From IMG/VR virus record IMGVR_UViG_3300029953_000019: a DNA stretch of 64,000 nt. One strand, written 5' to 3'. The position numbers and the translations under genes are program-made. The notes under the pieces were generated by a model. The model was not told the DNA's origin. It did no database searches and saw only the letters and a list, made by a program, of their open reading frames with translations. Origin of the DNA: an uncultured virus (IMG/VR IMGVR_UViG_3300029953_000019). Its lineage: Duplodnaviria; Heunggongvirae; Uroviricota; Caudoviricetes. Shown here piece after piece: positions 1 to 47,988 of the stretch (position 1 is the stretch's first letter; each line of letters starts with the position of its first letter).

Positions 1-1
1 T

Positions 2-427
2 ATGACAATAACAAAAATAAACAATAGATGGTATGACGAAAACAATAATAGCTGGTTATCAGAAGAAGCAGCTACTCAATACTCACCTACCCTAACTAAT
101 TGTAGAGATTGTAGAGGTTGTAGTAATTGTGATGATTGTAGTTATTGTGATGATTGTAGTAATTGTAGTGGTTGTAGTACTTGTGGAGGTTGTATTAATT
201 GTAGTGTTTGTAGTGTTTGTAGTGATTGTAGTAGTTGTGGAGGTTGTATTAATTGTAGTGTTTGTAGTGTTTGTAGTGATTGTAGTAGTTGTAATGATTG
301 TAGTGATTGTAAAAAATGTTATAAATGTGATAATGGAACACATCTAGAGCCAGTTCAAATTAAGACTGAAGTTATGATAAGACCAGAATTAGACATTAAT
401 GATAGAAAGTTGGAACCAGACTTATGA
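2..427 (+). CDS. Cys-rich (Cxx)n repeat protein, family A copy 1, C-terminal tag RKLEPDL
   Basis: N-terminal RWYDENNNSW..SPTLTNC, Cys every third residue; 54-bp perfect tandem duplication 181-234/235-288. Confidence 0.85.
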   Translation: MTITKINNRWYDENNNSWLSEEAATQYSPTLTNCRDCRGCSNCDDCSYCDDCSNCSGCSTCGGCINCSVCSVCSDCSSCGGCINCSVCSVCSDCSSCNDCSDCKKCYKCDNGTHLEPVQIKTEVMIRPELDINDRKLEPDL

Positions 428-801
428 CAATAACAAAAAGAAATAATAGATGGTATGACGAAAATAATAATAGTTGGATAACTGAAGAATCAGCTACTCA
501 ATACTCACCTACCTTAACTAATTGTTATGATTGTAGAGGTTGTAGTAATTGTAGTAGTTGTAGAGATTGTTATAATTGTAGTTATTGTAGTAGTTGTAGT
601 AATTGTAGTAGTTGTATTAATTGTAATAATTGTAGTAATTGTAGTAATTGTAATAATTGTAATAGGTGTAGTGATTGTAGTGATTGTAGTTATTGTAGTC
701 GTTGTAGAGATTGTAGTGATTGGACTGATAATAAGAAATATGAACCGGTAATTAGACCATTTATAGACTGTACTAACAGACTATTAGAACCAGATTTATG
801 A
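424..801 (+). CDS. Cys-rich repeat protein, family A copy 2 (RLLEPDL)
   Basis: Same N-terminus and Cys periodicity; ATGA overlap with the previous gene. Confidence 0.85.
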   Translation: MTITKRNNRWYDENNNSWITEESATQYSPTLTNCYDCRGCSNCSSCRDCYNCSYCSSCSNCSSCINCNNCSNCSNCNNCNRCSDCSDCSYCSRCRDCSDWTDNKKYEPVIRPFIDCTNRLLEPDL

Positions 802-1295
802 ATAACAACCTTAAAATAGTAGAACAAAACATATTATTAGCAGACGCCCAAGTAGTTGCTCATTGCTGTAATAATATGAACAAAATGGGTAGTGGGGTAG
901 CCAGAGCCCTAAGATGTAGATTTCCGGAAGTATATGCAACTGATACCAAGTCTTATATTAACTTTGGTTCAGCTATGTTGGGTAAATGTGTGTTAGTTCC
1001 TATCACTACTCTACCTAATCAGACCAAGCTACTATACGTTGCCAATCTATATGGTCAATTAGGTTATGGTACAATGCATCTTAGATATGTGCATTATGAA
1101 GGATTTTACTTAGCTTTAGAGTCATTAATAAAGCAAATGAGTGAGCAGAATATGACTAGACTGGCTTTACCTTATAAGATAGGTGCGGATAGGGCTGGCG
1201 GTAATTGGAATATTATTGAAACTATGGTTAAGGAGGTTATTAAAGGAAGTAACATTGAAGTTACTCTATATAAACTTCCTAAAAAGTTAATGTAG
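798..1295 (+). CDS. Macrodomain (ADP-ribose binding/hydrolase, Poa1/DarG-like) protein
   Basis: HCCN..MGSGVA, NLYGQ and KIGADRAGGNW motifs typical of macrodomains. Confidence 0.85.
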   Translation: MNNNLKIVEQNILLADAQVVAHCCNNMNKMGSGVARALRCRFPEVYATDTKSYINFGSAMLGKCVLVPITTLPNQTKLLYVANLYGQLGYGTMHLRYVHYEGFYLALESLIKQMSEQNMTRLALPYKIGADRAGGNWNIIETMVKEVIKGSNIEVTLYKLPKKLM

Positions 1296-1297
1296 TT

Positions 1298-1531
1298 ATG
1301 ACTCTTTATATCATTCTAAGACATATCAGATCTCCATCAACTAACGCTATTATAGACGTCCTATATCAAGCGTTTCAAAATAAGGAGGCAGCCCTGGAAT
1401 ATATCAAATTTTTAACAGATAATAGTACTGTAGTAGGTGAATTTGAATTGAAGGAGTTTGTATCGGTTGAGAAAGATGAGATAACAATTAGAAGTGAGGG
1501 TGGGGAAAGAAGATTAGAACCAGATTTATGA
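1298..1531 (+). CDS. Small protein, family B copy 1, tag IRSEGGERRLEPDL
   Basis: ORF in operon; shares C-terminus with 3989-4282. Confidence 0.75.
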   Translation: MTLYIILRHIRSPSTNAIIDVLYQAFQNKEAALEYIKFLTDNSTVVGEFELKEFVSVEKDEITIRSEGGERRLEPDL

Positions 1532-1941
1532 CAATAACTAAAAGAGATACTAGATGGTATGACGAAAACTATAATAGCTGGGATACTAAAGAATCAGCTA
1601 CTTTACACTCACCTACCCTAACTGATTGTAGATGGTGTAGAGGTTGTAGTGATTGTAGAAGGTGTAGTAATTGTAGATATTGTAGTGATTGTAATGCTTG
1701 TAGTGGTTGTAATGGTTGTAGAGATTGTTATAATTGTAGTAATTGTATTGATTGTAGAGATTGTAATGGTTGTAGTGATTGTAGTAGTTGTAGAGATTGT
1801 ATTTATTGTAGTAGTTGTAGTAATATTTCTTCAGAAAATGATAAATCGTGGTTTAAGTCCATGTATTATGGAGATGAAGTTAATAAGGAAATAAGACCAG
1901 AATTAGACATTAATAATAGAAAGCTAGACCTAGATTTATGA
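1528..1941 (+). CDS. Cys-rich repeat protein, family A copy 3 (RKLDLDL)
   Basis: Conserved N-terminus, Cxx repeats. Confidence 0.85.
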   Translation: MTITKRDTRWYDENYNSWDTKESATLHSPTLTDCRWCRGCSDCRRCSNCRYCSDCNACSGCNGCRDCYNCSNCIDCRDCNGCSDCSSCRDCIYCSSCSNISSENDKSWFKSMYYGDEVNKEIRPELDINNRKLDLDL

Positions 1942-2264
1942 TTGTATATGCTATTAAAATATTGAAAGTTAAATATAGTAGAAATACCCTACCTAATAAG
2001 TTTGTTAGAGTAGTTATTAAGTATATCGAATTTTATGATAGGGAAGGTTACTGTGATGATGAAGAACAGACTAGTATTGAACCTGTAGATTTATACCAAG
2101 CCTCTTTGTATCTTAGTAAAGAAGCTGTGGAACAAGAAATTAAAAGGGTAAGGATGATAAAAGAAGCGTACAAATACGAAATAGTTGAGATAGAATTAGC
2201 TGAGTTAAGTAAGCCTGAAATAAGAATAGAGAACCAGTACAGAAGATTAGATCTAGAATTATAA
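1938..2264 (+). CDS. Small protein, family B copy 2, tag RRLDLEL
   Basis: ATGA-coupled ORF; MxxYxI start and ExEL motif like the other family B members. Confidence 0.75.
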   Translation: MIVYAIKILKVKYSRNTLPNKFVRVVIKYIEFYDREGYCDDEEQTSIEPVDLYQASLYLSKEAVEQEIKRVRMIKEAYKYEIVEIELAELSKPEIRIENQYRRLDLEL

Positions 2265-2269
2265 ACAAT

Positions 2270-2710
2270 ATGCCTAAAGCCACAAATATAAATTGTCATG
2301 CCGCCAAAGATATCAATAAACTACCAGATAACACAGTATTGATATCAATAAATGAAGAATATGAGCCACTTTATCCTTTAAAGTTGGATAGAGAGTCAGA
2401 AAATGTGTTAACTTTAAGATTTACTGATATAACTGCACCTTTAACTCATGAAGGCGAAATGTATCATCCTATTAGTGCTGAAGATGCTTTTAAAATATTA
2501 AAGTTCATTGATAAGCATTTAACCAAAGATTTCATAGTTCATTGTGCAGCTGGGGTATCTAGAAGTTCAGCTATTTGTCTCTATCTACATATTATGCATT
2601 CATATGTGTTAAAAGACAATTTTTGGCTTTCTTCTTCACCTAATTGCTATGTACTTGGTATGTTAATGCGGCGTAAGGTTGAGCAGGAATCTATGTTAGA
2701 CGAGATTTAG
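2270..2710 (+). CDS. Cys-based (CX5R) protein tyrosine/dual-specificity phosphatase-like protein
   Basis: VHCAAGVSRS active-site loop. Confidence 0.85.
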   Translation: MPKATNINCHAAKDINKLPDNTVLISINEEYEPLYPLKLDRESENVLTLRFTDITAPLTHEGEMYHPISAEDAFKILKFIDKHLTKDFIVHCAAGVSRSSAICLYLHIMHSYVLKDNFWLSSSPNCYVLGMLMRRKVEQESMLDEI

Positions 2711-2711
2711 T

Positions 2712-2957
2712 ATGTCAGATCCAAATCCTCGTATCTTTCCTACTCGATTTCGGCTTTTGAGTAATATGGAAGTCATAATAACTAAAGAAATAGATGTACA
2801 GTGGTGGGGTGATCTACATTATTTATTCGATGTAATTATAGAAGATAATAATAACTACTTTTTAGTATATAATAAAGTAGGAGAGACACAGGTTAAAGCT
2901 ATTATAAAAAGGAGAGAACTTAAACAGTATAATGGTGAATACTATGAAAATAACTAA
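2712..2957 (+). CDS. Hypothetical protein
   Basis: 81-aa ORF packed between neighbours. Confidence 0.55.
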   Translation: MSDPNPRIFPTRFRLLSNMEVIITKEIDVQWWGDLHYLFDVIIEDNNNYFLVYNKVGETQVKAIIKRRELKQYNGEYYENN

Positions 2958-3276
2958 AAGAGATGATAGATGGTATGACGAAAACGATAATAGTTGGTCT
3001 ACAGAAGAATCAGCTACTCAATTCTCACCTACTCTAACTAATTGTATTAGTTGTAGAGATTGTAGATGGTGTAATGATTGTAGAGATTGTAGAGATTGTT
3101 ATAATTGTAGTAATTGTAGTAATTGTAGTAATTGTAGTAGTTGTACTTATTGTAGATGGTGTAATGATTGTAGTAACTGTATTGATTGTAGTGATTGGAC
3201 TGATAATAAGAAGTATGAACCAGTAACTAGACCGTTTATAGATTGTAGAGATAGACTATTAGAACCAGATTTATGA
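2944..3276 (+). CDS. Cys-rich repeat protein, family A copy 4 (RLLEPDL)
   Basis: Start placed at MKITKR (2944) by alignment with paralogs. Confidence 0.85.
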   Translation: MKITKRDDRWYDENDNSWSTEESATQFSPTLTNCISCRDCRWCNDCRDCRDCYNCSNCSNCSNCSSCTYCRWCNDCSNCIDCSDWTDNKKYEPVTRPFIDCRDRLLEPDL

Positions 3277-3671
3277 AAATAACAAAAATAGCTAATAGAT
3301 GGTATGACGAAAACAATAATAGCTGGGATACTGAAGAAGCAGCTACTTTATATTCACCTACCCTAACTAATTGTTATAATTGTAGTAATTGTAGTAATTG
3401 TAGTGTTTGTAGTGATTGTAGTAATTGGTGTAGTAATTGTAATGATTGTGATAGTTGTAGAGATTGTATTAATTGTAATAATTGTGGTAGTTGTAGTAGT
3501 TGTAGTAATTGTAGGAGTTGTTGTAGGTGTAGTGATTGTGATAATTGTAAGTTTATTGCTTCTTTATTTGATAGAGTTGAAGTTGATGCAAGTTTAATTG
3601 AAAGCTGCAAAGAAAATTTAGTTAGAGAAGAATTTGACTTAAACAATAGAAAACTGGAAATAGAACTATGA
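3273..3671 (+). CDS. Cys-rich repeat protein, family A copy 5 (RKLEIEL)
   Basis: Conserved N-terminus, Cxx repeats. Confidence 0.85.
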   Translation: MKITKIANRWYDENNNSWDTEEAATLYSPTLTNCYNCSNCSNCSVCSDCSNWCSNCNDCDSCRDCINCNNCGSCSSCSNCRSCCRCSDCDNCKFIASLFDRVEVDASLIESCKENLVREEFDLNNRKLEIEL

Positions 3672-3940
3672 AGACACTATACGAATTTGAAGAACAACAA
3701 AAAGAACTTATAGCTGCTTGTGAGAGAGAAGCTAAAGCTAAATTAGAAGGCAAAAATGTATTTATGGATACTTTTGCGCATCGGTTTGAAGATATAGTTG
3801 AAGAAATACAAAGAGATGCTAGGAGAGAAGGGGTTAGAGATTGTATAAGGGATATACATATGTGTAAATCAGTTCAATCTAATCCAGACATTATTTATAC
3901 CCATGAATTAATAATAGCAAGATTAATTAAACTATTATGA
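3668..3940 (+). CDS. Hypothetical helical protein
   Basis: ATGA-coupled 90-aa ORF. Confidence 0.65.
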   Translation: MKTLYEFEEQQKELIAACEREAKAKLEGKNVFMDTFAHRFEDIVEEIQRDARREGVRDCIRDIHMCKSVQSNPDIIYTHELIIARLIKLL

Positions 3941-3988
3941 ACATATATGAAGTAGTAGATAAATATGAACTAGCACAATATATTCTAA

Positions 3989-4282
3989 ATGAAAATATAC
4001 CTAATACAGGTTCTAAAACTAAATGGTTTTCTATATGATAATGCTGATGAAATTCGGTATTTAGCAGTGAATTCTTATATAGACTATACAACAAGGGAAG
4101 TAAAAAATGCTAGAGTATTTGAAGATAGAGAAAAAATTGGAGACGAACTATATGAAATTACACTAATGAATAGTTTTAATTTTCTCGTTACTAAAATTCT
4201 TGAGTTTGAGCTAGTAGAATTTAAAGGTAATAAGTCAATTAGAAGTGAGGGAGGAGAGAGAAGATTAGAACTAGACTTATGA
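3989..4282 (+). CDS. Small protein, family B copy 3, tag IRSEGGERRLELDL
   Basis: Shares C-terminus with 1298-1531. Confidence 0.75.
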   Translation: MKIYLIQVLKLNGFLYDNADEIRYLAVNSYIDYTTREVKNARVFEDREKIGDELYEITLMNSFNFLVTKILEFELVEFKGNKSIRSEGGERRLELDL

Positions 4283-4758
4283 CAATAACTAAAATAGATA
4301 ATAGATGGTATGACGAAAACAATAATAGTTGGTCTACAGAAGAACTAGCTACTACTGACTCTCCTACCCTAACTAATTGTAGTAGTTGTAGAGATTGTAG
4401 ATGGTGTAGGAATTGTATTCATTGTAAAGGTTGTATTGGTTGTATTGATTGTTATGATTGTAATGATTGTAGTAATTGTAGTAGTTGTAGTGGTTGTAGT
4501 AGTTGTATTGATTGTAATCGTTGTAGTGATTGTACTGGCTGTATTGATTGTAGTTATTGTAGTTATTGTAATAATTGTAGTGAGTGTAGTAACTGTAAAA
4601 ACTGTTATAAATGTAATACCTTTTCTTTTTGTAGAAACTGTGCTTTTGGTTTTAAGAAAAGCTATTATAAACCTATGAAGTATAAACGTAGAGCTAAGAA
4701 GAGTAAAATTAGACAGGAATATGACATTAATGATAGAAGATTGGAGATTGAACTGTGA
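4279..4758 (+). CDS. Cys-rich repeat protein, family A copy 6 (RRLEIEL)
   Basis: Longest Cxx tract, basic linker. Confidence 0.85.
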   Translation: MTITKIDNRWYDENNNSWSTEELATTDSPTLTNCSSCRDCRWCRNCIHCKGCIGCIDCYDCNDCSNCSSCSGCSSCIDCNRCSDCTGCIDCSYCSYCNNCSECSNCKNCYKCNTFSFCRNCAFGFKKSYYKPMKYKRRAKKSKIRQEYDINDRRLEIEL

Positions 4759-5000
4759 TAGCAAACCATATAATATTAACCAGCTGTTACTTAGTAGTAG
4801 GGATACTTATAGCTTTAAGAACTGTTATTGAATATACTGACATCCATTACTATCCTAAGAAGTGTAAGTTAATATTATTTATCCTAGTAATTGCCATATA
4901 TGCTGTAATAGATGTAACAATTTGGCCTTTATATGCAATTTTAGGTTTGATATCAGGAATAAGAAGATTAACCAAAGAATTTTTTAAGAATAACAACTAG
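4755..5000 (+). CDS. Small membrane protein
   Basis: GTGA overlap; two hydrophobic segments. Confidence 0.6.
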   Translation: MIANHIILTSCYLVVGILIALRTVIEYTDIHYYPKKCKLILFILVIAIYAVIDVTIWPLYAILGLISGIRRLTKEFFKNNN

Positions 5001-5025
5001 ACAAACAAACAAATTAACGTATAAT
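4998..5025 (+). promoter_or_regulatory. Sigma70-like promoter, probably leaderless transcript
   Basis: TAGACA-16nt-TATAAT, ATG 6 nt after the -10 box. Confidence 0.55.
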
Positions 5026-5031
5026 AAACAT

Positions 5032-5664
5032 ATGAAATTAACATCAATAACATCAATAATGGCAGTAATTAGTCTATGCACTATTTCTGCTTTCGGTCAA
5101 ACTAATGTCACTCAAGTCCCAAACTTGATGGCCAACATTCCTGTCTCAACAGCTGTGCAGGCTATCTATCAGGACATTGCAAATTCTGGTATTATGCAGG
5201 CAACTAATTGGGGAGTTAGTCCTTATGGTACTTATGCACCTAAGTCAGCTAACAAATATGGTGGTGGTGTATTGGCAGTATATAATGTCCCAACACTTAC
5301 CGGGTCTTTAGGAGCAGTTGGTGCAGTGTTAGGGGCAGATTGGTTGGGGTCCTGGTCTTTGGTCAGTGGTTCAGTAACTCTTTCAACACCTACGCATCCA
5401 TTAGCATCAACATCACTATTAAACTGGCTTCCTACCGGTATTCGTAACATTGAAGCTGATCCTATTGCTATTGCTGGTATCGGAACACCCTTATCTGGGT
5501 CATCTGGGGCAGCTGAGTTGTGGGATATAGGATACAACGTTGATATTTATAATACTGCTACTAGTAAAGTCGGCGCTGGGTTTACTTGGGGTGAATGGAT
5601 CAATGCCGGAACTGAGTCTGGACATAGATATCACTTATTCGTTAGTTGGAAATACAACTTCTAA
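5032..5664 (+). CDS. Signal-peptide protein, probable outer-membrane beta-barrel
   Basis: MK+hydrophobic+AFG/Q leader; amphipathic beta strands; ends LFVSWKYNF (terminal Phe). Confidence 0.65.
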   Translation: MKLTSITSIMAVISLCTISAFGQTNVTQVPNLMANIPVSTAVQAIYQDIANSGIMQATNWGVSPYGTYAPKSANKYGGGVLAVYNVPTLTGSLGAVGAVLGADWLGSWSLVSGSVTLSTPTHPLASTSLLNWLPTGIRNIEADPIAIAGIGTPLSGSSGAAELWDIGYNVDIYNTATSKVGAGFTWGEWINAGTESGHRYHLFVSWKYNF

Positions 5665-5694
5665 TTTAGTTAGAGTAGTTTATACTACTACACT

Positions 5695-6018
5695 ATGAAA
5701 CTAACAAAAAGAAATGATAGATGGTATGACGAAAACAATAATAGTTGGATAACAGAACAACTAGCTACTCTACACTCACCTAATCTAACTAATTGTAACT
5801 GGTGTAGTGATTGTAGTAATTGTAATAATTGTAATAGTTGTAGTGATTGTAGTGATTGTAGAGATTGTTATATGTGTGTTAATTGTAGGAGTTGTAATCA
5901 TCTTGCAAATAAGAAAAACTATAAACCACAACCTATTAAATCTAAGAAAAAGAAGAAAATTACTAAAATTAGACAAGAATACAATATTAACGATAGAAGA
6001 TTGGAACTAGAATTATGA
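5695..6018 (+). CDS. Cys-rich repeat protein, family A copy 7 (RRLELEL)
   Basis: Conserved N-terminus, Cxx repeats. Confidence 0.85.
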   Translation: MKLTKRNDRWYDENNNSWITEQLATLHSPNLTNCNWCSDCSNCNNCNSCSDCSDCRDCYMCVNCRSCNHLANKKNYKPQPIKSKKKKKITKIRQEYNINDRRLELEL

Positions 6019-6713
6019 AAATAATAGCAGATGGTGATAGTTGGAACAGCTACCCACTTCCTTTCTCTGGTGGTGGGTTGGCTGATCATTTAGCTGTTGT
6101 GTTAGATATTGATATTGAAAACTATGCCCATCCCGGTGATAGTACTGAAGAAACAATGGGCTTAAAGAAGAGATTAAAGTTGGAACAATATCTACCAAAC
6201 AGTGATATCTTATTATTCTCAGGTGGTGGTGATGATTTTGTGGGTGATCAGCTTCCTATATTTCTAAATGATAATAAGGATGGAAATATTAATAAAGCCA
6301 TAGATCTTGATAGACTTGATGCAGCCATGGATCTTGCTATAGCAGATTATGAGGATCTGTTTCAGTTAAGAGATGAAATAGCTCCTAACTGTCTCATAAT
6401 TACACATAGCTATGATTTTCCTGTTCCTGAAATGATTGGTAATGGTGTATTGTGGTTAGGTCCTTGGATTAAACCTGGGATGGATCATTGTGGCTGGACT
6501 AATCCTAAAGATGCTGCTGATATAACGAAGCTTATTCTTTTAGAATTTGAAAGAAGAATAAGTTTGCTCAGTCTACCTAATCATCTTCATATTAATTTTC
6601 AAGGAACATTAACTACTTCTGACTGGGGTAATGAAATACATCCTAATAGTAGTGGTTGGAAGAAGTTAGCTAATCAAATTAAATTGAAATTAGTCCATTA
6701 TTTAAATAAATAA
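6015..6713 (+). CDS. SGNH/GDSL-family hydrolase
   Basis: ADGDSW, SGGGDD and NEIHP blocks. Confidence 0.8.
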   Translation: MKIIADGDSWNSYPLPFSGGGLADHLAVVLDIDIENYAHPGDSTEETMGLKKRLKLEQYLPNSDILLFSGGGDDFVGDQLPIFLNDNKDGNINKAIDLDRLDAAMDLAIADYEDLFQLRDEIAPNCLIITHSYDFPVPEMIGNGVLWLGPWIKPGMDHCGWTNPKDAADITKLILLEFERRISLLSLPNHLHINFQGTLTTSDWGNEIHPNSSGWKKLANQIKLKLVHYLNK

Positions 6714-6726
6714 TATCAATCTTAAC

Positions 6727-6754
6727 ATAGCCTCCTACAAAATTAGGAGGCTAT
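6727..6754 (+). terminator. Intergenic hairpin (terminator or processing site)
   Basis: Perfect 11-bp stem ATAGCCTCCTA/TAGGAGGCTAT, 6-nt loop; weak U-tract. Confidence 0.5.
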
Positions 6755-6774
6755 TATCATTTACAAACAGCACT

Positions 6775-7188
6775 ATGAAACTAAGAAAACGAAATAATAG
6801 ATGGTATGACGAAAATAATAATAGTTGGATAACTGAAGAATCAGCTACTCAATACTCACCTACCTTAACTAATTGTTATGATTGTAGAGGTTGTAGTAAT
6901 TGTAGTAGTTGTAGAGATTGTTATAATTGTAGTTATTGTAGTAGTTGTAGTAATTGTAGTAGTTGTATTAATTGTTATAATTGTAGTGATTGTAGTAATT
7001 GTAGAAATTGTATTAGTTGTAGTCGTTGTAGTGGTTGTAGTATTTGTAAAGGTTGCAAACAGTCAATAGAATTAGACTTTAAGAAAAACTATAAACCACA
7101 GCCTATTAAATCTAAGAAAAAGAATAAAATTGCTAAAATTAGACAGGAATACAATATTAATGATAGAAGATTGGAGATTGAACTATGA
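6775..7188 (+). CDS. Cys-rich repeat protein, family A copy 8 (RRLEIEL)
   Basis: 5' part identical to copy 2, 3' part identical to copy 9. Confidence 0.85.
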   Translation: MKLRKRNNRWYDENNNSWITEESATQYSPTLTNCYDCRGCSNCSSCRDCYNCSYCSSCSNCSSCINCYNCSDCSNCRNCISCSRCSGCSICKGCKQSIELDFKKNYKPQPIKSKKKNKIAKIRQEYNINDRRLEIEL

Positions 7189-7367
7189 TAATAAACAATA
7201 AAAATACAATCGATGATACTTATATATTGGTTGATAAGATAAATGGAACATTAAATTTTGAAGACCTTACCATAGTTGATTTAAGTGATGATGAAGTTAG
7301 AATACTTAATTACGCTTATGCTTTAAATGGTAGTTCTTTACGTTATATTTCAGTAACACAATCATGA
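7185..7367 (+). CDS. Hypothetical protein
   Basis: 60 aa, ATGA overlaps at both ends. Confidence 0.55.
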   Translation: MIINNKNTIDDTYILVDKINGTLNFEDLTIVDLSDDEVRILNYAYALNGSSLRYISVTQS

Positions 7368-7741
7368 AACTAACAAAAAGAGCTGATAGATGGTATGACG
7401 AAAACGGTAATAGTTGGATAACTGAAGAACTAGCTACTACATATTCACCTACCTTAACTAATTGTTATAATTGTAGAGATTGTAGTAGTTGTAGTAATTG
7501 TAGTAGTTGTATTAATTGTAGTTATTGTAGTGATTGTATTAATTGTAATAGTTGTAGAAGTTGTAGTCGTTGTAGTGCTTGTTATAATTGTATAGGTTGT
7601 AAAGGTTGCAAACAGTCAATAGAATTAGACTTTAAGAAAAACTATAAACCACAGCCTATTAAATCTAAGAAAAAGAATAAAATTGCTAAAATTAGACAGG
7701 AATACAATATTAATGATAGAAAGCTAGAATTAGAATTATGA
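7364..7741 (+). CDS. Cys-rich repeat protein, family A copy 9 (RKLELEL)
   Basis: Conserved N-terminus, Cxx repeats. Confidence 0.85.
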   Translation: MKLTKRADRWYDENGNSWITEELATTYSPTLTNCYNCRDCSSCSNCSSCINCSYCSDCINCNSCRSCSRCSACYNCIGCKGCKQSIELDFKKNYKPQPIKSKKKNKIAKIRQEYNINDRKLELEL

Positions 7742-7937
7742 AACTTCACATATTATATAATATAGCAACAATGGCAGATATTAAGTTGACTAAGAATGAA
7801 GCTAGACCACTTAATTATAGCCCTCCCAGATATGTTCTGTTTTAATCTACCTAAGGTGATAGCTGCAAAGCACACCTTTTTTTAGCTATCAGTAAGTTTG
7901 CCTTGAATATAGATTAACTTGATTGTATTATATAGTT

Positions 7938-10472: not shown

Positions 10473-12968
10473 ATGTTTAAGAAATTCATAGCATCATCAA
10501 TCCTATTATTTAGTTTAGTATCAATCCAGGCTAATATTATATCAGTAGCTGTTATTACTGATACTAATGGGGTTTTAGCAGGTTCAAGTACTAATCTATT
10601 CCAGACCAATGCTCCGGCTTTGGCTGCAACACTGACTAATAGCACAGTGTTAGGATTTACCATACCTCAGAATATCCTTAGTAATAATGCTACTGGACCT
10701 GTAACCTTTAGTAATAATGTAACCGTGAACAACACACTATTGGTGAGTGGTAATTTTACGGCTACGAATGGCATTACACAGACAGCTAGTGAGACGATTT
10801 ACGGACTAACTGGATTTGATTTCATTGGTGGCTTTCAGGCAATTAATACAACTACTCGACAGCTTCGTGATTCTGGTGGAAACTTAGTAGCAACGTGGAC
10901 GAATGGATTTAACCTCGTCGAGCCATCGAATCTAGGCGCTGGGACTAATCTGTCCGGCCCAAACATCGTCGGTATTATCAACCCGACCAATCTACCTTCG
11001 TTTGTCACTAATGGCGCATCACCAGCATTGAATCTGGTCAACGCAACCAACTACTCGGTTTCCACCGCAACCGGCACGCTCCCAATCGCCAGCCTGCCAG
11101 GGAGTGTGGTGACGACGAATAACTACGTCAGCACAAATACTGCAATAACGATATATAATGACACTCTTGCCAGAACTTACTGCAATACAAATCATGTATC
11201 AGACATTGAAGCACAGTCATTTCTTACAACAGCTTGGAATGATCAGTACGCATTAAGTGTCGCGTCTAATGTGGTGTCAGCTGGATGCTTTGATAGCCGG
11301 TTCAACCCCACCAATTACGATTTAATGCTGAACCCGATGACAGTCCCATTGGGGGTGAGCTACGGTTTTACAGGCCCGAACATCAACGGAGCACGGGAGT
11401 CCGGAACCAACATTTTCACGGTCAACATTGCCCCATTAACTAATTTCTTTGCGGTCTTATGGTATTGGAATAATGCCAGCAATATGGATGCAAATAACCT
11501 TAACGAGGGTAATGGGGCGTGTCCATGGGTGGCACTTTATAATACCAATAATTGGTCCGGCATTGCTGGTACGACCATTGACGTAAACCAAAATGAACAG
11601 ATATGGGCAAGCCCATTTGGTACAAATTTCAACACTTATCAGAACCCATTTAATATTTCGACAAATCAAGCCAAGATCATGATGAATGGGCAGTACGATT
11701 CGCGCACACCGATGGGAATCCCTTATGTCATCGGCATTAGTGGTAACACCAATGGTCAAGCCAGTTATTGGTGCCAGTCGAAGCCTGGTTTCTTCACATT
11801 CGCGGCAGTGCCAACGAATGTCAACAACTTTGGTCCAGCAGGCGGCCCTTATAATCAATTATGGATTGGTGGTGCTGGAACCAATTTTGCCTTGAGTGCA
11901 CCTGGGAACTTCATCACCAACGCCGTGGGCACTCTGGGTGGTTATATCCTGTACAATGTTAGTGCGGAAAATAACCCGTCTGTTGCTATCGCGGGATACA
12001 AATTTGCGACCGATTTAATGCGTTATCACTCGGCGGTTGATTTTGGCGGGTCGAGTCTCATTAATTTTGCTGTACCTGCCAAGTTCGTCGGTCTGGGAAG
12101 CGGCATTGTCTACACCAACTCGATGCCTTATTTGTTCGCGGTCGAGAACCCAGACGTGCTGACGCTTGTTGATGCTTCGCCCGGAAGCACGATGGCGACC
12201 TATAACAATGAGGGTTATGGGACAAACTCTTGGAGTCCGGGTGCCATGACCAACCTAAACCGCTTGCGCTATCCCAGTGTAATATTTGAGACTGATGGGC
12301 CGCGCAACGATGCCTTTGCCAACACGTCCATTGCCAATATTATCTCTTATTGGAACTCGTTTTATATCCCCTTATACAATGTGGGCATCCCAATTTGGTT
12401 AATAGATACACACTGGGACTACCGCTTTGGGGCGTCAACGAATCTGTATTGGAAGAACGTGCAAGCGGCCTTGTATACCAACTTTCTGCAATCCATCGCC
12501 GGGGTAATCCGGGAGTCGGATTATGTGGGGTCAAATGTCGAGGCCGCATTTTCGGCCGACGTGCCCCCCATCCATCCTGACGCACGCACTCTTTTCGCGC
12601 ACAATTTTAACCTCGGTTTCGCGGATCTCTGTGCATTCAAACCGTGGCCGTATCCGAACTGGTCAGCAACATGGCTGAATTACAATTCCAGCATGGGGAC
12701 GGTTGATGCCGGGATTCAGGGAATGCAACAGCTGTCGTTTCAATTGGGGGATACAAATGGCGCACAACGCACGACATTTGATGGAAGTGCATTGACCAAT
12801 CTAGTATATCGCATTTACAACTTAACGAGTACTCCGACATGGTTTGGAATTTCTAACGTATCGCTTTTGTGGGAAAGCAACAATGCAGCAGGGACCGCTG
12901 TACCAATCGGATACAGAACGTACTTTGATGCTGGACAGGTGGCACATACAGCAGTGACTGGATTCTAA
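10473..12968 (+). CDS. Signal-peptide-bearing fibre/spike-like protein, possible C-terminal SGNH-like domain
   Basis: MFKK-hydrophobic-IQA leader; TN-rich stalk; GGSSL..GPRND..IHP pattern; GC-rich body. Confidence 0.6.
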   Translation: MFKKFIASSILLFSLVSIQANIISVAVITDTNGVLAGSSTNLFQTNAPALAATLTNSTVLGFTIPQNILSNNATGPVTFSNNVTVNNTLLVSGNFTATNGITQTASETIYGLTGFDFIGGFQAINTTTRQLRDSGGNLVATWTNGFNLVEPSNLGAGTNLSGPNIVGIINPTNLPSFVTNGASPALNLVNATNYSVSTATGTLPIASLPGSVVTTNNYVSTNTAITIYNDTLARTYCNTNHVSDIEAQSFLTTAWNDQYALSVASNVVSAGCFDSRFNPTNYDLMLNPMTVPLGVSYGFTGPNINGARESGTNIFTVNIAPLTNFFAVLWYWNNASNMDANNLNEGNGACPWVALYNTNNWSGIAGTTIDVNQNEQIWASPFGTNFNTYQNPFNISTNQAKIMMNGQYDSRTPMGIPYVIGISGNTNGQASYWCQSKPGFFTFAAVPTNVNNFGPAGGPYNQLWIGGAGTNFALSAPGNFITNAVGTLGGYILYNVSAENNPSVAIAGYKFATDLMRYHSAVDFGGSSLINFAVPAKFVGLGSGIVYTNSMPYLFAVENPDVLTLVDASPGSTMATYNNEGYGTNSWSPGAMTNLNRLRYPSVIFETDGPRNDAFANTSIANIISYWNSFYIPLYNVGIPIWLIDTHWDYRFGASTNLYWKNVQAALYTNFLQSIAGVIRESDYVGSNVEAAFSADVPPIHPDARTLFAHNFNLGFADLCAFKPWPYPNWSATWLNYNSSMGTVDAGIQGMQQLSFQLGDTNGAQRTTFDGSALTNLVYRIYNLTSTPTWFGISNVSLLWESNNAAGTAVPIGYRTYFDAGQVAHTAVTGF

Positions 12969-13043: not shown

Positions 13044-14876
13044 ATGAAGATCGTGAATCAAGTATTTATTCTATTATTGTTATCAATTAACTATATTTTA
13101 GCTTCTACCTCCATACCTAATGAGTATTGGGTATCTACAGTTAATACCGGTAATATCTTTCCTACTAATGGTACTATAGATAATCCATTAGACGGTTCAA
13201 ATAATACTAATTTCGATTTGAATATGGGTCTAATCCCAGCAAATTCTACTATTCACTTATTAACAGGTACATTCCAAACTAAAGGATCGTGGCAAGGATA
13301 TGGATTAAAGTCTGGACAGAAAGTATGCGGTAGTGGCATTGATAATACTATAGTCCAATTAGTAGCACCAACTTTTGTAGGAGGTTCAGGAGTATCAGTA
13401 ATGGGAAATTTTGGTTCAGTTACTAACAATGAGATACAAGACTTAACTATAGATTGTAATGTAAGTAATGTTTTAGATACATATAGTGGAGTTGGATTGA
13501 TTGGTACAGAAAATAGTATAAGAAGAGTTAAGGTAATTAACTGCGGTAAATTTGGTGGCAATAGTGAGGCTTGGGGAATAGTGATAGCAAATTATTATTT
13601 ACCAGACAGTATAGGAAATATTATAGAAGAATGTGAAGTATCTCAGTATAGGGGTGGTGGAGGTATCACTAGTATAGCATTAGCAGGTGGTGGAGATAAT
13701 TTTGGTAGTAATTCAGAACCAGCTCAAACTATATCTGGTATTATAAGAAATAATAAAGTTATATTAGTTAGTACAAATTATCCTATATATTCAAAAGGTT
13801 CATGGTTTGGTATCGGTTTAGGTGGTTGGCAGCATGATGTATTGATTGAAGGCAATTATCTAGAAGGTTGTGACGTTGGCATACCTGGAGATACGGGTTG
13901 GGCACATAATGTAATAATTCAAAATAATCAAATACTGGATTGTGATTACGGAGTAGAAGCTATAGGATTTGATAGAGTTAATATAACTATAGCCAATAAT
14001 CATGTAAGGATATTAAGTTTCTTTAATAACTCAACTAATGTAGGAGCTGAACCATTTCCTCCCTGTGCATTCTATTTTTATCCAGGAACTATATATACTT
14101 CATTTACGAACATCTGGATAACAGGGAATGTAGTTGAATATGTAGCAGGTGTATCTAATGCAATCTGGCAAGGATTCGTAGCTGGTGGGGCATTTACTGG
14201 ATTAAATGTAAGCGGTAATAGTTATGATAGTTCAATGAATTATAATATATTTACCTGGGCACCTTCCATTAATGTAGCTATTCATAACAATACAGATTTA
14301 TTCGGAAATCCAATGCTAGGTATAGGTACTAATATATTCACTGATCCTATAAATGTGAGGAATGATTTAACTGTAAATGGTGCTATAACAGGTAATGGGT
14401 CTACTATAACAAATATTAATACTACTAATTTGGTTGGGTTTATAACATCTTCATTAATATCAGGTAACTACTCTAATATAGTTAACTTTACAAGTACTAG
14501 TAATACATTCATAGGTAATTATATAGGTAATGGAGTTAATCTTACTAATCTAACCGCCTCCAATCTATTACCTGGAACTTATTCTAATAACTTTACCGGT
14601 ACTTTTAGTGGGAGTGGACTTAATCTAACTAATTTAAATACTACTAACCTAAATAAGGGTACAATTAGTTCTTCATTGATTTCTGGCACATATTCCAATA
14701 CAATTAATCTTAACAACAATACTAATAAGTTAACTGGTACATTTTCAGGTAATGGTAGTGGAGTTACAAATATACCTTATCTAGGATTAATAGGTGGATT
14801 GACAACTAATGAAGTAATATCATCTAATATAACTCTAGTATATAGTAATGGGGTATTAGTAGGTATTAAGAAATAA
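13044..14876 (+). CDS. Signal-peptide-bearing parallel beta-helix protein
   Basis: Hydrophobic leader; GSGIDNTIV and repeated IxxN rungs; C-terminal GNGxxLTNL repeats. Confidence 0.65.
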   Translation: MKIVNQVFILLLLSINYILASTSIPNEYWVSTVNTGNIFPTNGTIDNPLDGSNNTNFDLNMGLIPANSTIHLLTGTFQTKGSWQGYGLKSGQKVCGSGIDNTIVQLVAPTFVGGSGVSVMGNFGSVTNNEIQDLTIDCNVSNVLDTYSGVGLIGTENSIRRVKVINCGKFGGNSEAWGIVIANYYLPDSIGNIIEECEVSQYRGGGGITSIALAGGGDNFGSNSEPAQTISGIIRNNKVILVSTNYPIYSKGSWFGIGLGGWQHDVLIEGNYLEGCDVGIPGDTGWAHNVIIQNNQILDCDYGVEAIGFDRVNITIANNHVRILSFFNNSTNVGAEPFPPCAFYFYPGTIYTSFTNIWITGNVVEYVAGVSNAIWQGFVAGGAFTGLNVSGNSYDSSMNYNIFTWAPSINVAIHNNTDLFGNPMLGIGTNIFTDPINVRNDLTVNGAITGNGSTITNINTTNLVGFITSSLISGNYSNIVNFTSTSNTFIGNYIGNGVNLTNLTASNLLPGTYSNNFTGTFSGSGLNLTNLNTTNLNKGTISSSLISGTYSNTINLNNNTNKLTGTFSGNGSGVTNIPYLGLIGGLTTNEVISSNITLVYSNGVLVGIKK

Positions 14877-17001: not shown

Positions 17002-17139
17002 GATGTTCAATCTAGTTCATCAGTATATGAGGTATGATGGTAGCCTTAATTGGTGGGAGCATGCCTGGTTTATTGAATGGAAAAGACTGGCTAATATCTC
17101 TTCTTGACTAGTTCTTTATTTCATCATAGTATTTCAATT

Positions 17140-17373
17140 ATGAATAAAGGATATTTACTTACAATACCGGAAGAGGTCACATTAACTCCAGAAGTGTTTA
17201 AGCAGATGATGAATCAATATAAACATTATAGGAGTGTTTCATATACATTTAGTAAGAAACATACTAATGATATTCTCAATTATAGGAAGTCTTCAGGAAA
17301 GAGTAATATAATCCCTGGTAATGTATATAATCTGCCTATTACTTATAACGCAGATATTACTGGCGTTAAATAG
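17140..17373 (+). CDS. Hypothetical protein
   Basis: ATG at 17140, preceded by TTGACT-17nt-TAGTAT. Confidence 0.45.
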   Translation: MNKGYLLTIPEEVTLTPEVFKQMMNQYKHYRSVSYTFSKKHTNDILNYRKSSGKSNIIPGNVYNLPITYNADITGVK

Positions 17374-46895: not shown

Positions 46896-46940
46896 GTTTA
46901 CTACCTTATCAGAAAGAAATAAATTGTCAAGTAAGAAATG

Positions 46941-46978
46941 AAAGAAGAAGGCCTCCTACTAGTGAAAGTAGAAGGCCT
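46941..46978 (-). terminator. Rho-independent terminator after major capsid gene
   Basis: 12-bp stem AGGCCTTCTACT/AGTAGGAGGCCT then TCTTCTTT. Confidence 0.65.
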
Positions 46979-47009
46979 ATGAAACCCTTAATTTTAAAGG
47001 GAATTATTA

Positions 47010-47969: not shown

Positions 47970-47988
47970 ATAATTATTTCCTTTAAGG

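What the first reader, a model, noticed from the sequence alone, without database searches (positions are those of the whole stretch)
1..7741. Twelve genes from two unrelated families share a terminal R-[RKL]-L-[ED]-x-[DE]-L-stop tag: candidate C-terminal addressing system
Seen: nine Cys-rich proteins and three non-Cys proteins (1298, 1938, 3989) all end RKLEPDL, RLLEPDL, RRLEPDL, RKLDLDL, RRLDLEL, RKLEIEL, RRLELDL, RRLEIEL, RRLELEL or RKLELEL. A hydrophobic/Thr-Arg pair (IR, VR, TR) lies 11-14 residues before the tag's end. Codons vary (TTG/TTA/CTA/CTG) while the peptide pattern is kept, which points to selection on the peptide. In 11 of 12 cases the stop overlaps the next start (ATGA/GTGA). 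The macrodomain, phosphatase, SGNH and membrane cargo genes lack the tag. Inference: the tag docks varied effectors on one shared partner (phage ATPase/chaperone, portal or capsid loading, protease, or a sliding clamp; it loosely resembles the RQLVLGL clamp-binding end of E. coli DinB). It could also act as a short homology site for gene shuffling. I know of no description of this tag.
Basis: partly seen in the sequence, partly recalled or inferred. Interest (0 to 1): 0.88.

Follow-up and report, generated by a model that had tools for sequence, protein, structure and literature searches.

The report
Shared C-terminal address tag in phage
Dozens of unrelated small proteins of a large uncultured phage end in the same seven-residue tail, which copies the tail of the phage's own AAA+ ATPase and so probably plugs them all into one machine.

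Summary
All 12 ORFs end R-[RKL]-L-[ED]-x-[DE]-L-stop, and a 13th tagged ORF ends at window base 5. In six-frame translations of seven related phage contigs the strict motif occurs 93 times, always at a stop and never internally.

Selection acts on the peptide. In 14 close gene pairs the tag shows 4 synonymous and 0 non-synonymous changes. Gene bodies show 21 and 138 (Fisher p=2.4e-4). No RNA structure was found.

The tag sits on at least 10 unrelated protein families. If contigs G000 and G002 are parts of one ~218 kb genome, 38 genes carry it.

New finding: the phage's Ycf46/Vps4-type AAA+ ATPase (...EDRALDPFN) and its operon neighbour DUF3150 (...RRLDFDEL) carry the same tail. In six other phage lineages the AAA tail, the DUF3150 tail and the tails of some extra proteins vary together. 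Examples are R-x-I-K-Φ in one lineage and ERRLDTxL in another.

Best reading: the tag addresses client proteins to the AAA–DUF3150 module. The receptor and the purpose are inferred, not shown. Tag-plus-ATGA junctions also appear to serve gene-cassette shuffling.

I found no published description. Interest is high.

The parts
1..5 (+). Last bases and TGA stop of an upstream 88-aa Cys-rich ORF ending ...INDRNLDPFL (class-B tag). Its stop overlaps the ATG of ORF 2-427.
   Evidence: ORF at window -261..5
2..427 (+). Cys-rich (CXX)n protein, 141 aa. Tag RKLEPDL at 404-424, stop at 425-427, ATGA overlap with the next gene.
   Evidence: phrog_15341
424..801 (+). Cys-rich protein, 125 aa. Tag RLLEPDL at 778-798, ATGA overlap with the macro-domain gene.
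1298..1531 (+). Non-Cys 77-aa protein ending ...IRSEGGERRLEPDL. Tag at 1508-1528, ATGA overlap with a Cys-rich gene.
   Evidence: no Pfam or PHROG family at the set thresholds, only a sub-cutoff UBA hit
1528..1941 (+). Cys-rich protein, 137 aa. Tag RKLDLDL at 1918-1938, ATGA overlap.
1938..2264 (+). Non-Cys 108-aa protein. Tag RRLDLEL at 2241-2261, TAA stop, next ATG 5 nt downstream.
   Evidence: no family
2932..3276 (+). Cys-rich protein, 114 aa. Tag RLLEPDL at 3253-3273, ATGA overlap.
3273..3671 (+). Cys-rich protein, 132 aa. Tag RKLEIEL at 3648-3668, ATGA overlap.
3989..4282 (+). Non-Cys 97-aa protein, paralogue of 1298-1531, ending ...IRSEGGERRLELDL. Tag at 4259-4279, ATGA overlap with a Cys-rich gene.
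4279..4758 (+). Cys-rich protein, 159 aa. Tag RRLEIEL at 4735-4755, GTGA overlap.
5695..6018 (+). Cys-rich protein, 107 aa. Tag RRLELEL at 5995-6015, ATGA overlap with the SGNH-like gene.
6775..7188 (+). Cys-rich protein, 137 aa. Tag RRLEIEL at 7165-7185, ATGA overlap.
7364..7741 (+). Cys-rich protein, 125 aa. Tag RKLELEL at 7718-7738, ATGA overlap. The AF2 model gives the tail as unstructured.

Best explanation
The ending R-[RKL]-L-[ED]-x-[DE]-L-COOH, with a sister form R-N-L-D-P-[YF]-L, is a strictly C-terminal short linear peptide motif kept by selection on the protein.

It is the local version of a tail of the form R-x-Φ-x-Φ...COOH. That tail ends two core proteins of a conserved operon in a group of large tailed phages: a Ycf46/SpoVK/Vps4-type classical AAA+ ATPase and the DUF3150 protein next to it. 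In each lineage the AAA tail, the DUF3150 tail and the tails of a few to dozens of small accessory proteins share the same variant.

The tag therefore most likely plugs the accessory proteins into the docking site used by the AAA and DUF3150 tails. That would address them, as clients, substrates or competitors, to this ATPase module. In this phage clade the tag has spread through a hyperplastic region of small genes. The junction 'tag + ATGA start of the next gene' doubles as a recombination and translational-coupling joint that moves cassettes.

Shown: the motif, its strict terminal position, peptide-level selection, its presence on many unrelated families, its presence on AAA and DUF3150, and covariation between lineages.

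Inferred: that one receptor reads all the tails, that the receptor belongs to the AAA-DUF3150 module, and what happens to clients. Possible fates are unfolding, loading into the virion as in PVC payload loading, timed removal, or regulation.
For: 1. Strict terminal position. The strict regex hits G000 15 times, G001 9, G002 23, G004 19, the G003 tail 9, G005 13 and L003 5. All hits are at a stop and on one strand, with 0 internal.

2. Peptide-level selection.
- Among 14 equal-length close gene pairs, the tag (98 codons) has 4 synonymous and 0 non-synonymous differences. Bodies (1510 codons) have 21 and 138. Fisher p=2.4e-4.
- In 52 unique tails the invariant Leu at -5 uses TTA 25, CTA 12, TTG 8, CTG 5, CTT 2. 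This is not different from genome usage (p=0.13).
- 11 of 52 tails end in TAA or TAG, so the stop forms no ATGA/GTGA overlap with a downstream start.

3. Many carriers. There are 79 unique tagged proteins in 21 BLAST groups, of which 4 are tag fragments of 9-14 aa and 1 (family 9) includes a truncated member. None of the non-Cys ones matches Pfam or PHROGs above threshold.

4. The AAA ATPase of the same phage ends ...GNGEDRALDPFN and the DUF3150 protein ends ...YTRRLDFDEL. The 13 closest full-length AAA homologues (50-67% identity) all end in R-x-[LV]-x-[ILVTM] tails such as NRELDIS, ERKLDTGGL and DRKVSVGEL.

5. Lineage covariation.
- G006: AAA NRRLDEKFS, DUF3150 TRRLDTEGI, plus 9 small proteins ending ERRLDT[DHQ]L, DRRLDPNL and similar. 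That is 11 of 200 genes against 1.06 expected.
- G011: AAA VRKIKA, DUF3150 FRAIKL, plus 4 proteins ending RAIKI, RAIKI, RKIKL, RAIRL. That is 6 of 56 genes against 0.18 expected.
- G010: AAA LRSIAI, DUF3150 VRRIEV, plus RRIEL and RRISL.
- G012: AAA RELSIE, DUF3150 RNLEI, plus RSLEI.
- L100: the DUF3150 protein ends in the exact tag RRLDLEL.
- A permutation test of AAA against DUF3150 tails over 7 lineages found 12 of 5040 permutations reaching the observed match.

6. A distant relative without DUF3150 (L104) has an AAA without the tail.

7. The tail is unstructured in AF2 models of a Cys-rich protein (pLDDT about 50-60) and of DUF3150 (residues 319-328 below 50), as expected for a docking peptide.

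8. Cassette joint. A 4-nt start overlap follows 14 of 18 tagged against 20 of 156 other genes in G000, 17 of 32 against 15 of 119 in G002, and 7 of 13 against 21 of 187 in G006. Tag fragments of 10-14 aa lie directly before Cys-gene starts.
Against: - No binding has been shown and no receptor identified.
- The AAA's own tail in this phage ends in Asn, not Leu, and DUF3150 has one extra residue, so neither fits the strict regex.
- In the wider AAA family only 31 of 123 representatives (480-620 aa) have an R-x-[LIVM] motif in the last 11 residues, so the tail is not universal.
- Shared tails on AAA, DUF3150 and the accessory proteins could equally mean that all of them are read by a host factor. 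Covariation between lineages would then track different hosts.
- Seven lineages is a small sample, and their tails were read by eye before the permutation test was designed.
- Gene calls come from my own simple longest-ORF caller.
- All relatives are metagenomic fragments and the host is unknown.
- Many paralogues share ancestry, and identical 15-nt stretches in tags of unrelated genes show that gene conversion also helps to keep the tags alike.
Confidence: 0.55

Rival explanations
1. The tails are read by a host protein, for example a protease or unfoldase that recognises free C-termini. On this view the tag is a degron or a hijacking handle, and AAA and DUF3150 are simply two more proteins under the same control.
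For: - The strict need for the extreme C-terminus (0 internal hits) fits readers of a free carboxylate.
- The tail variant changes between phage lineages of different G+C content (35% against 42%), which could reflect different hosts.
- No reader domain such as PDZ was found in any of the 4 Pfam scans.
Against: - The tail is conserved on the AAA family across very distant phages, including a mycobacteriophage AAA ending RVLDL. A host-specific reader would not predict this.
- The tail goes together with DUF3150: 7 lineages have both and 1 has neither.
- The host is unknown, so nothing could be tested.
Confidence: 0.15
2. The tag is a virion-targeting sequence independent of the AAA. It would bind the prohead core, capsid interior or portal so that the small proteins are packaged and ejected with the DNA. 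This resembles the T4 capsid targeting sequence or encapsulin cargo peptides. The upstream Φ-R-x-E would be a prohead-protease site that removes the tag.
For: - The locus is hyperplastic, holds many unrelated small ORFs with one terminal signal, and abuts tail-fibre-like genes.
- A Φ-R-x-E motif lies 4-7 residues before the tag in most families.
- The phage has a head maturation protease hit (phrog_18299, E 2.2e-6).
- That T4-type and giant-phage prohead proteases cut after Glu is recalled knowledge, not tested here.
Against: - It does not explain why a cytoplasmic AAA ATPase and DUF3150 carry the tail in every lineage.
- The protease type could not be assigned.
- The T4 signal is N-terminal.
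- No virion data exist.
Confidence: 0.12
3. The conservation is a nucleic-acid signal only: a translational-coupling or re-initiation region, or a recombination site, with the peptide as a by-product.
For: - ATGA overlap is far more common after tagged genes (14 of 18 against 20 of 156 in G000).
- The last Leu codon is biased to NTA (49 of 52 end in A; p=4.5e-5 against genome usage).
- The junction is less folded than shuffled sequence (mean z +0.56).
- Tag fragments lie in front of Cys-rich genes.
Against: - The tag shows 0 non-synonymous against 4 synonymous changes.
- The invariant Leu at -5 is spread over 5 codons that differ at up to 2 bases.
- 11 of 52 tails end in TAA or TAG, and several have no start nearby.
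- The same peptide motif ends AAA and DUF3150 in lineages with quite different DNA.
- No RNA structure was found (0 of 58 junctions with z below -2).
Confidence: 0.04
4. The tag is a sliding-clamp-binding motif of the QLxLxL type.
For: There is a loose likeness, x-L-x-Φ-x-L at a C-terminus. This is recalled knowledge of clamp motifs. Two G006 tags read RQLDPDL and RQLDPHL.
Against: - Position 1 is R, K, L or N in this clade and never Q.
- Pro occupies the middle hydrophobic position in 22 of 52 tails.
- No clamp family appeared in any of the 4 Pfam scans, and the polymerase is family A.
- Clamp motifs need not be terminal (recalled), whereas this motif is terminal in every case.
- It is hard to see why about 38 small proteins, an AAA ATPase and DUF3150 would all bind a clamp.
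Confidence: 0.02
5. The tail is a self-association module. Alternating Leu and acid residues would form a beta strand that zips tagged proteins, AAA and DUF3150 together without a dedicated receptor.
For: - The alternating pattern L-E-L-E-L, together with the upstream E-L-D-I segment, could form an amphipathic hairpin (reading).
- All carriers, including AAA and DUF3150, have the same piece.
Against: - Pro occupies the centre in 22 of 52 tails.
- The basic variant R-x-I-K-Φ lacks the acid-and-Leu alternation.
- The core is very short, at 5-7 residues.
- AF2 gives no structure for it.
Confidence: 0.04

Closest known systems
Payload signal peptides and the Pvc15 AAA ATPase of the Photorhabdus virulence cassette (extracellular contractile injection systems)
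   Same: - Many unrelated payload proteins are encoded beside a contractile-tail structure, and each carries a short disordered terminal signal.
- A classical AAA ATPase selects the signal and loads the payloads. [quoted passage not shown]
- Here the AAA's active domain best matches Cdc48/VCP D2 (E 5e-42), and the phage has a tail-sheath hit.
   Different: - The PVC signal is N-terminal and about 50 aa. Here the signal is C-terminal and 7-16 aa.
- Here the ATPase itself and DUF3150 carry the signal.
- This is a true phage with a genome to package.
- Homology of this AAA to Pvc15 was not tested.
- Loading into the virion is not shown.
Capsid targeting sequence of the T4 internal proteins
   Same: A short conserved terminal peptide sits on otherwise unrelated small proteins in a hyperplastic locus, with conserved coding DNA at cassette borders. 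This is recalled knowledge; reviews PMC3012670 and PMC9026906 were seen only in the search listing.
   Different: - The T4 signal is N-terminal and is cut off at L/I-x-E.
- T4 has only a few carriers.
- No ATPase shares the signal.
C-terminal docking or degron tails read by AAA+ machines (ssrA tag and ClpX, HbYX tails of proteasomal ATPases, tubulin tails and katanin or spastin, RbcL tail and CbbX)
   Same: Short, strictly C-terminal peptides with a terminal hydrophobic residue, handled by or belonging to classical AAA+ ATPases (recalled knowledge).
   Different: - The sequence differs.
- No peptidase partner was seen in about 187 kb.
- The same tail occurs on the ATPase and on its putative clients. 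I do not know this to be described for any of these systems.
   Same: An alternating hydrophobic pattern at a C-terminus.
   Different: No Gln at position 1, frequent Pro in the middle, obligatorily terminal, and no clamp found. See the membership test.

Membership tests
Beta-clamp-binding motif (QLxLxL / QL[SD]LF) | Gln at the first position (consensus recalled, not from a call) | tested here: not met
   At that position the 52 unique tails have K 22, R 18, L 8 and N 4, and never Q. Only two tags of the distant phage G006 have Q.
Beta-clamp-binding motif (QLxLxL / QL[SD]LF) | A sliding clamp available in the system | tested here: inconclusive
   No clamp family at E<=0.001 in the Pfam scans of 100 and 69 proteins, nor in the scans of 23 and 19 proteins at looser cut-offs. 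About 30 kb of the genome and the whole host are unseen.
T4-type capsid targeting sequence | N-terminal position, removed by the prohead protease after L/I-x-E (recalled) | tested here: not met
   The motif is C-terminal in every case. An upstream Φ-R-x-E exists in most families, but cleavage cannot be tested here.
T4-type capsid targeting sequence | Carriers are found inside the virion | not testable with these tools
   Uncultured phage; no proteome available.
eCIS/PVC payload signal with Pvc15-type loader | A classical AAA ATPase with an inactive first part and an active D2-like domain, encoded by the element | tested here: inconclusive
   An AAA is present. Its C-part hits PF00004 and AAA_lid_3 and its best PDB matches are Cdc48/VCP D2. 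The N-part (306 aa) has no assigned fold. Homology to Pvc15 itself was not tested.
eCIS/PVC payload signal with Pvc15-type loader | N-terminal disordered signal of about 50 aa on payloads | tested here: not met
   The signal here is C-terminal and 7-16 aa. It is disordered in the AF2 model.
C-terminal degron of an AAA+ protease | Obligatory free C-terminus | tested here: met
   0 internal occurrences among 93 strict hits in seven contigs.
C-terminal degron of an AAA+ protease | A partner peptidase | tested here: inconclusive
   None was seen in the Pfam, PHROG or NCBIfam scans apart from the head maturation protease hit. Host proteases are unknown.
Ycf46/SpoVK/Vps4-type AAA with R-x-Φ-x-Φ tail (the family whose tail the tag copies) | The tail motif lies at the C-terminus of the ATPase | tested here: met
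   It is present in this phage, in 13 of the 13 closest homologues, in the AAA of 6 further lineages and in mycobacteriophage Catdawg (RVLDL). It is seen in only 31 of 123 wider representatives.

The most novel reading that the evidence does not exclude
The tag is the cargo code of a phage-borne, AAA+-driven protein-loading system. The Ycf46/Vps4-type ATPase, working with DUF3150, would grasp the C-terminal tail of about 40 small, fast-evolving proteins and thread them into the virion (head or tail tube). They would then enter the host with the DNA. Tag and receptor would co-evolve between phage lineages, acidic in one and basic in another, which would make this a natural, re-programmable addressing code in a true phage, parallel to PVC payload loading.
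Probability: 0.15. Interest if true: 0.9.

Novelty: new variant of a known kind. Interest (0 to 1): 0.8.

Why it matters
- Scale. If G000 and G002 are parts of one ~218 kb genome, 38 genes carry one seven-residue ending.
- A conserved core. The same ending, in lineage-specific dialects, marks the tails of a conserved AAA+ ATPase and of a domain of unknown function (DUF3150).
- A handle on function. This gives a testable starting point for two unknown protein families (DUF3150, Ycf46-type AAA in phages) and for dozens of orphan phage proteins.
- A possible tool. If the tag directs proteins to a machine or into virions, it could be used as a short portable tag with natural orthogonal variants.
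- Gene evolution. It shows how a docking peptide and a cassette junction (tag + ATGA) can spread together through a hyperplastic locus.

Tried and rejected
Complex prediction
- One job was run: DUF3150 residues 1-300, the 120-aa operon protein and DUF1257 against the 40-residue tail of ORF 7364-7738. The verdict was 'no answer' (score 0.00), which says nothing either way. In hindsight, cutting DUF3150 at residue 300 removed the last helix of its helical bundle.

Family and homology searches on tagged proteins
- Pfam, PHROGs and NCBIfam gave nothing above threshold for the non-Cys proteins.
- A homologue search with one tagged 146-aa protein found only its own cluster.
- The ESM Atlas gave no lead, with scores at or below 0.79.

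DUF3150 fold
- Foldseek against the PDB gave no match at E<=0.001.
- VIA-align wide gave only generic helical bundles, Z at most 10.8, covering residues about 196-324. The N-terminal alpha/beta part is barely tested.

Nucleic-acid explanations
- RNA structure at the tag/start junction: none (mean z +0.56, 0 of 58 below -2).
- Shine-Dalgarno explanation: no SD-like sequence is visible before untagged gene starts on reading. This was done by eye only.
- Promoter timing from upstream regions was inconclusive. A repeated terminator-plus-TTGACA motif was seen but not interpreted.

Searches in public collections
- blastn of the region against GenBank phages found only low-complexity Cys-repeat matches.
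- tblastn of a Cys-rich protein and of DUF3150 against phages found no match.
- The IMG/VR scan for the tag DNA pattern returned 46 stretches. They were this clade plus 19 singletons, of which 17 lie in ORF tails of 41 aa or fewer. The pattern required Asp at -8 and a TGA stop, so it was narrow and missed G006.

Other
- Head protease type: not assignable.
- Rfam on the 291-nt insertion in the AAA gene: no hit.
- Literature: six searches found no description of the tag or of the DUF3150/Ycf46 tails. Only listings and abstracts were seen, plus one passage of PMC4284462 and the outline and abstract of PMC11495950.

Full report
**What is in the window**

Window 1-7741 is a tightly packed + strand block of small genes.

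Nine of them belong to one family. It has a conserved N-terminal piece (M-x-I-T-K-R-x-x-R-W-Y-D-E-N-N-N-S-W...S-P-T-L-T-N-C), a run of Cys-x-x repeats with 12-29 Cys, a linker and the tag. All nine hit phrog_15341, whose function is unknown.

The other three are 1298-1531, 3989-4282 and 1938-2264. The first two are paralogues (45% identity, tag included). The third shows no significant similarity to them once the tag is removed.

Eleven of the 12 stops overlap the next start (10 ATGA, 1 GTGA). A thirteenth tagged ORF (...INDRNLDPFL) ends at window base 5. In the block from -300 to 7760, 13 of 21 called genes are tagged.

The interspersed genes lack the tag. They are a macro-domain gene (DarG-like, weak hit), a dual-specificity-phosphatase-like gene, an SGNH-like gene, a membrane gene and a signal-peptide gene.

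**Is it more than chance?**

Yes. In the whole 127,352-bp assembly (G000; the window is its bases 42957-106956, minus strand) the regex hits 15 times in six frames. All hits are at a stop and on one strand, and none is internal.

In related IMG/VR contigs the picture is the same. The counts are G001 9, G002 23, G004 19, a 20-kb piece of G003 9, G005 13 and L003 5, with 0 internal hits. With a looser regex, G000 has 18 of 174 genes against 0.53 expected and G002 has 32 of 151 against 1.01. The expectation comes from internal windows of the same proteins. One of the 18 in G000 is a false hit.

**Peptide or nucleic acid?**

The evidence points to the peptide.
- In 52 unique tails the invariant Arg is AGA 39, AGG 10, CGA 3.
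- The invariant Leu at -5 is TTA 25, CTA 12, TTG 8, CTG 5, CTT 2. This does not differ from genome Leu usage (p=0.13).
- The last Leu is biased to codons ending in A (p=4.5e-5), as the ATGA overlap demands.
- Among 14 equal-length close gene pairs the 7 tag codons carry 4 synonymous and 0 non-synonymous differences in 98 codons. Bodies carry 21 and 138 in 1510 codons (Fisher p=2.4e-4).
- Eleven of the 52 tails end in TAA or TAG, so the stop forms no ATGA/GTGA overlap with a downstream start, and some have no start nearby.
- The junction RNA is, if anything, less folded than shuffles (mean z +0.56; 0 of 58 below -2).

**The conserved module is longer than seven residues**

Upstream lies Φ-R-x-E, and a D/N/E usually precedes the Arg. 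The consensus in the Cys family is I-R-x-E-x-D-I-N-D-R-x-L-E-P-D-L.

A sister form, R-N-L-D-P-[YF]-L, is common in relatives, along with N-R-R-L-D-P-F-L and E-R-R-L-E-P-Y-L.

**Who carries it?**

Across the seven contigs there are 79 unique tagged proteins in 21 BLAST groups. Four groups are tag fragments of 9-14 aa and one (family 9) includes a truncated member. The real groups are:
- the Cys family (46 members);
- several groups of about 80-97-aa proteins starting like small SH3-type barrels (label by eye; only weak sub-threshold Pfam hints);
- orphan proteins of 103-175 aa.

None has a Pfam or PHROG family above threshold.

The Cys family itself is older than the tag. Campylobacter phage CP21 gene 192 has a similar N-terminal piece and Cys-x-x repeats but ends ...KIYKILNA. 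The tag is therefore an add-on module.

**What genome is this?**

It is a large contractile-tailed phage. It has split multisubunit RNA polymerase genes, many inteins and homing endonucleases, a family A polymerase fused to a UDG-like domain, ThyX and other functions. The nearest cultured relative by RNA polymerase beta is only about 30% identical (Salmonella phage Arash, Vibrio phage D69).

G001 (151 kb; CheckV 69%, so about 218 kb in full) is 100% identical to G000 over 91,796 bases and extends it by 59 kb. Nine G001 proteins that I checked are 100% identical in G002.

The tagged region of G000 and bases 54-85 kb of G002 share only the Cys family. If these contigs are parts of one genome, an accessory region of some 60 kb holds 15 + 23 = 38 strict-tag genes. 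That they belong to one genome is an inference.

**The key lead**

In the 59-kb extension lies an operon with these genes in order:
- a classical AAA+ ATPase, split by a 291-nt insertion into a 306-aa N-part and a 256-aa C-part. The C-part hits PF00004 and AAA_lid_3, and its best PDB matches are Cdc48/VCP D2 at E 5e-42;
- a 136-aa ORF;
- a DUF3150 protein (328 aa);
- a 120-aa ORF;
- a DUF1257 protein;
- three small ORFs;
- a tagged Cys gene;
- a metallophosphatase;
- a tagged 166-aa gene;
- another Cys gene with a class-B tag.

The ATPase ends ...GNGEDRALDPFN. That is nearly the class-B tag of two accessory proteins (...DEDRNLDPNL and ...INDRNLDPFL). DUF3150 ends ...YTRRLDFDEL.

Uninterrupted full-length homologues of the ATPase (538-575 aa) are named by their sources SpoVK/Ycf46/Vps4 family. 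The 13 closest (50-67% identity) all end in R-x-[LV]-x-[ILVTM] tails: NKRELEIS, QNRELDIS, LRELDIS, LRELDV, IRELDIS, FRQLDLS, ERKLDTGGL, GRNVDMTL, DRKVSVGEL (twice), DRKVTVDDL, SRKLEVGKDL and GRNVQLDI.

In the wider family the tail is less regular. Of 123 representatives of 480-620 aa, 31 have R-x-[LIVM]-[DEQSNT] in the last 11 residues. Some read like the tag itself (...ETRKLEL...QQRRIEL). A mycobacteriophage homologue (Catdawg gp97) ends ...KVRVLDL.

**Covariation between lineages**

Loci found with the AAA and DUF3150 alignments show the operon in several other large phages. Its layout is terminase on the other strand, then AAA, DUF3150, DUF1257, small ORFs, an Mre11/SbcD-like phosphoesterase and a long SbcC-like ORF. 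The last two labels rest on Pfam Metallophos and on my reading of the N-terminus. In each lineage the two tails resemble each other.

| Lineage | AAA tail | DUF3150 tail | Other proteins with the tail |
|---|---|---|---|
| This phage | RALDPFN | RRLDFDEL | up to 38 strict-tag genes |
| G006 | RRLDEKFS | RRLDTEGI | 9 small proteins |
| L100 | RELDIS | RRLDLEL (the strict tag) | not scanned beyond the 7-kb contig |
| G007 | RKVTVDDL | RRLDVGDDL | homologue of the 166-aa protein, DRNLSFEL |
| G010 | RSIAI | RRIEV | RRIEL, RRISL |
| G011 | RKIKA | RAIKL | RAIKI, RAIKI, RKIKL, RAIRL |
| G012 | RELSIE | RNLEI | DRSLEI |

(Sources.)

A permutation of lineage labels reaches the observed likeness in 12 of 5040 cases. 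The score was chosen after seeing the data, and n is only 7.

The enrichment of extra tailed proteins is clear in two lineages.
- G006 (134.6 kb, G+C 42%, no Cys family) has nine small proteins at 112-129 kb ending ERRLDTDL (twice), ERNIEPDL, ERRLDTHL, ERRLDTQL, ARQLDPDL, DRRLDPNL, ERQLDPHL and DRNLDQTI. Counting AAA and DUF3150, that is 11 of 200 genes against 1.06 expected.
- G011 (42 kb, 56 genes) has four more proteins ending with its basic variant. Counting AAA and DUF3150, that is 6 against 0.18 expected.

A distant relative whose AAA is 32% identical (L104) has DUF1257 but no DUF3150, and its AAA ends ...DEDSFNLN without the motif.

**Reading**

The tail motif is an old feature of this AAA family and of DUF3150. 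It changes in step between them, which is what a shared docking site would give. In at least three lineages other proteins have adopted the same tail. In this clade the adoption ran to dozens of genes.

The strict need for the extreme C-terminus, a flexible linker before the tail, and the lack of predicted structure all fit a docking peptide read through its free end. The linkers are K-rich in the Cys family and low-complexity in the AAA. The tail has pLDDT about 50-60 in the Cys protein and below 50 for DUF3150 residues 319-328.

From general knowledge, classical AAA+ ATPases often work on terminal tails, by threading or through docking pockets. The closest worked example of 'many payloads, one terminal signal, one AAA ATPase, one contractile device' is PVC payload loading by Pvc15 (abstracts seen). 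I therefore favour the view that tagged proteins are addressed to the AAA-DUF3150 module.

What the module does with them is open. Possibilities are loading into the virion, unfolding, removal or regulation. A host reader of all these tails remains a serious rival.

**The DNA side**

A 4-nt start overlap follows 14 of 18 tagged genes against 20 of 156 others in G000, 17 of 32 against 15 of 119 in G002, and 7 of 13 against 21 of 187 in G006. Because the tag ends in Leu (mostly TTA or CTA) plus TGA, it carries a built-in ATG.

Short ORFlets consisting of little more than a tag (DINDRKLEPDL, FNNRRLDPFL, MYIGVRVRNLEPFL) sit right before Cys-gene starts. Tags of unrelated genes share identical 15-nt stretches. 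Variant arrays of one region carry different gene sets: G004 against G002, and G005 against G000.

**Limits**

- All gene calls outside the ORF listing outputs are from my own longest-ORF caller.
- All relatives are metagenomic fragments, and the host is unknown.
- No binding was shown, and the one complex job gave no answer.
- DUF3150 has no recognisable fold match.
- The IMG/VR pattern scan was narrow, so the true spread of tags is not known.
- Supplements of the cited papers were not consulted.

Noticed in passing
window 2-7741 (nine genes); L086:2400-2825: The Cys-rich family has a Cys-x-x repeat of 12-43 Cys, encoded by (TGT AGT RAT)-like tandem DNA that leaves long spurious ORFs in other frames. 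A homologous architecture without the tag occurs in Campylobacter phage CP21 gene 192. A radical SAM gene of about 287 aa lies near the family in both phages (CP21_189; G001 L030:2681-3538), although the two enzymes are not clearly homologous (E 0.017).
   Followed up: partly
L028:12640-12933 (G001 112643-112933): The AAA ATPase gene is interrupted between GVLLAG and PGTGKT by a 291-nt insertion with no Rfam hit. Homologues in G006 and elsewhere are uninterrupted. The L116 homologue is also split (300 + 222 aa). It may be an intron of an undescribed kind.
   Followed up: partly
window 55946-58501 (-); L019:8841-11738, 15592-17310; L020:643-2979; L029:5172-7580: There are many inteins and homing endonucleases (Hint, LAGLIDADG, Hom_end) inside core genes: the head protease candidate, a helicase, RNA polymerase subunits and others. 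Four endonuclease VII/HNH genes lie at window 45326-49630.
   Followed up: no
window 1298-1531 and 3989-4282; L030:5797-6066: Two small tagged proteins end ...IRSEGG-ERRLE[PL]DL and a third ends ...ESG-ERRLEPYL. The Gly-Gly before the tail recalls ubiquitin-like precursors. The phage also encodes a Prok-JAB (L029:17324-17818) and a ThiF-type E1-like protein (L029:18096-18704, PRTRC-type hit).
   Followed up: no
window 7846-7900; upstream of genes at window 79371 (-) and 90033 (+): A repeated element made of a hairpin followed by TTTTTTTAGCTATCAGTAA(T/G)TTGACA-like sequence. It looks like a terminator joined to a sigma-70-like -35 box and occurs at three operon borders.
   Followed up: no
window 5032-5664, 10473-12968, 13044-14876, 15109-17001: Four phage proteins (210, 831, 610 and 630 aa) begin with signal-peptide-like hydrophobic N-termini. 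This is unusual for phage structural regions. None has a family hit.
   Followed up: no
tagged genes in all contigs: Bodies of closely related tagged genes differ by 138 non-synonymous against 21 synonymous changes in 1510 codons. This excess suggests diversifying selection, or repeat slippage in the Cys-x-x region.
   Followed up: no
L137:2506-3270 (Mycobacterium phage Catdawg gp103, gp102): Two adjacent proteins share another C-terminal ending (...DELTAKVQY), near an AAA ATPase whose tail is RVLDL.
   Followed up: no
window 798-1295 and 2270-2710: An untagged macro-domain protein (weak DarG-like hit, E 1.1e-7; phrog_335) and a dual-specificity-phosphatase-like protein lie between tagged genes.
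   Followed up: partly
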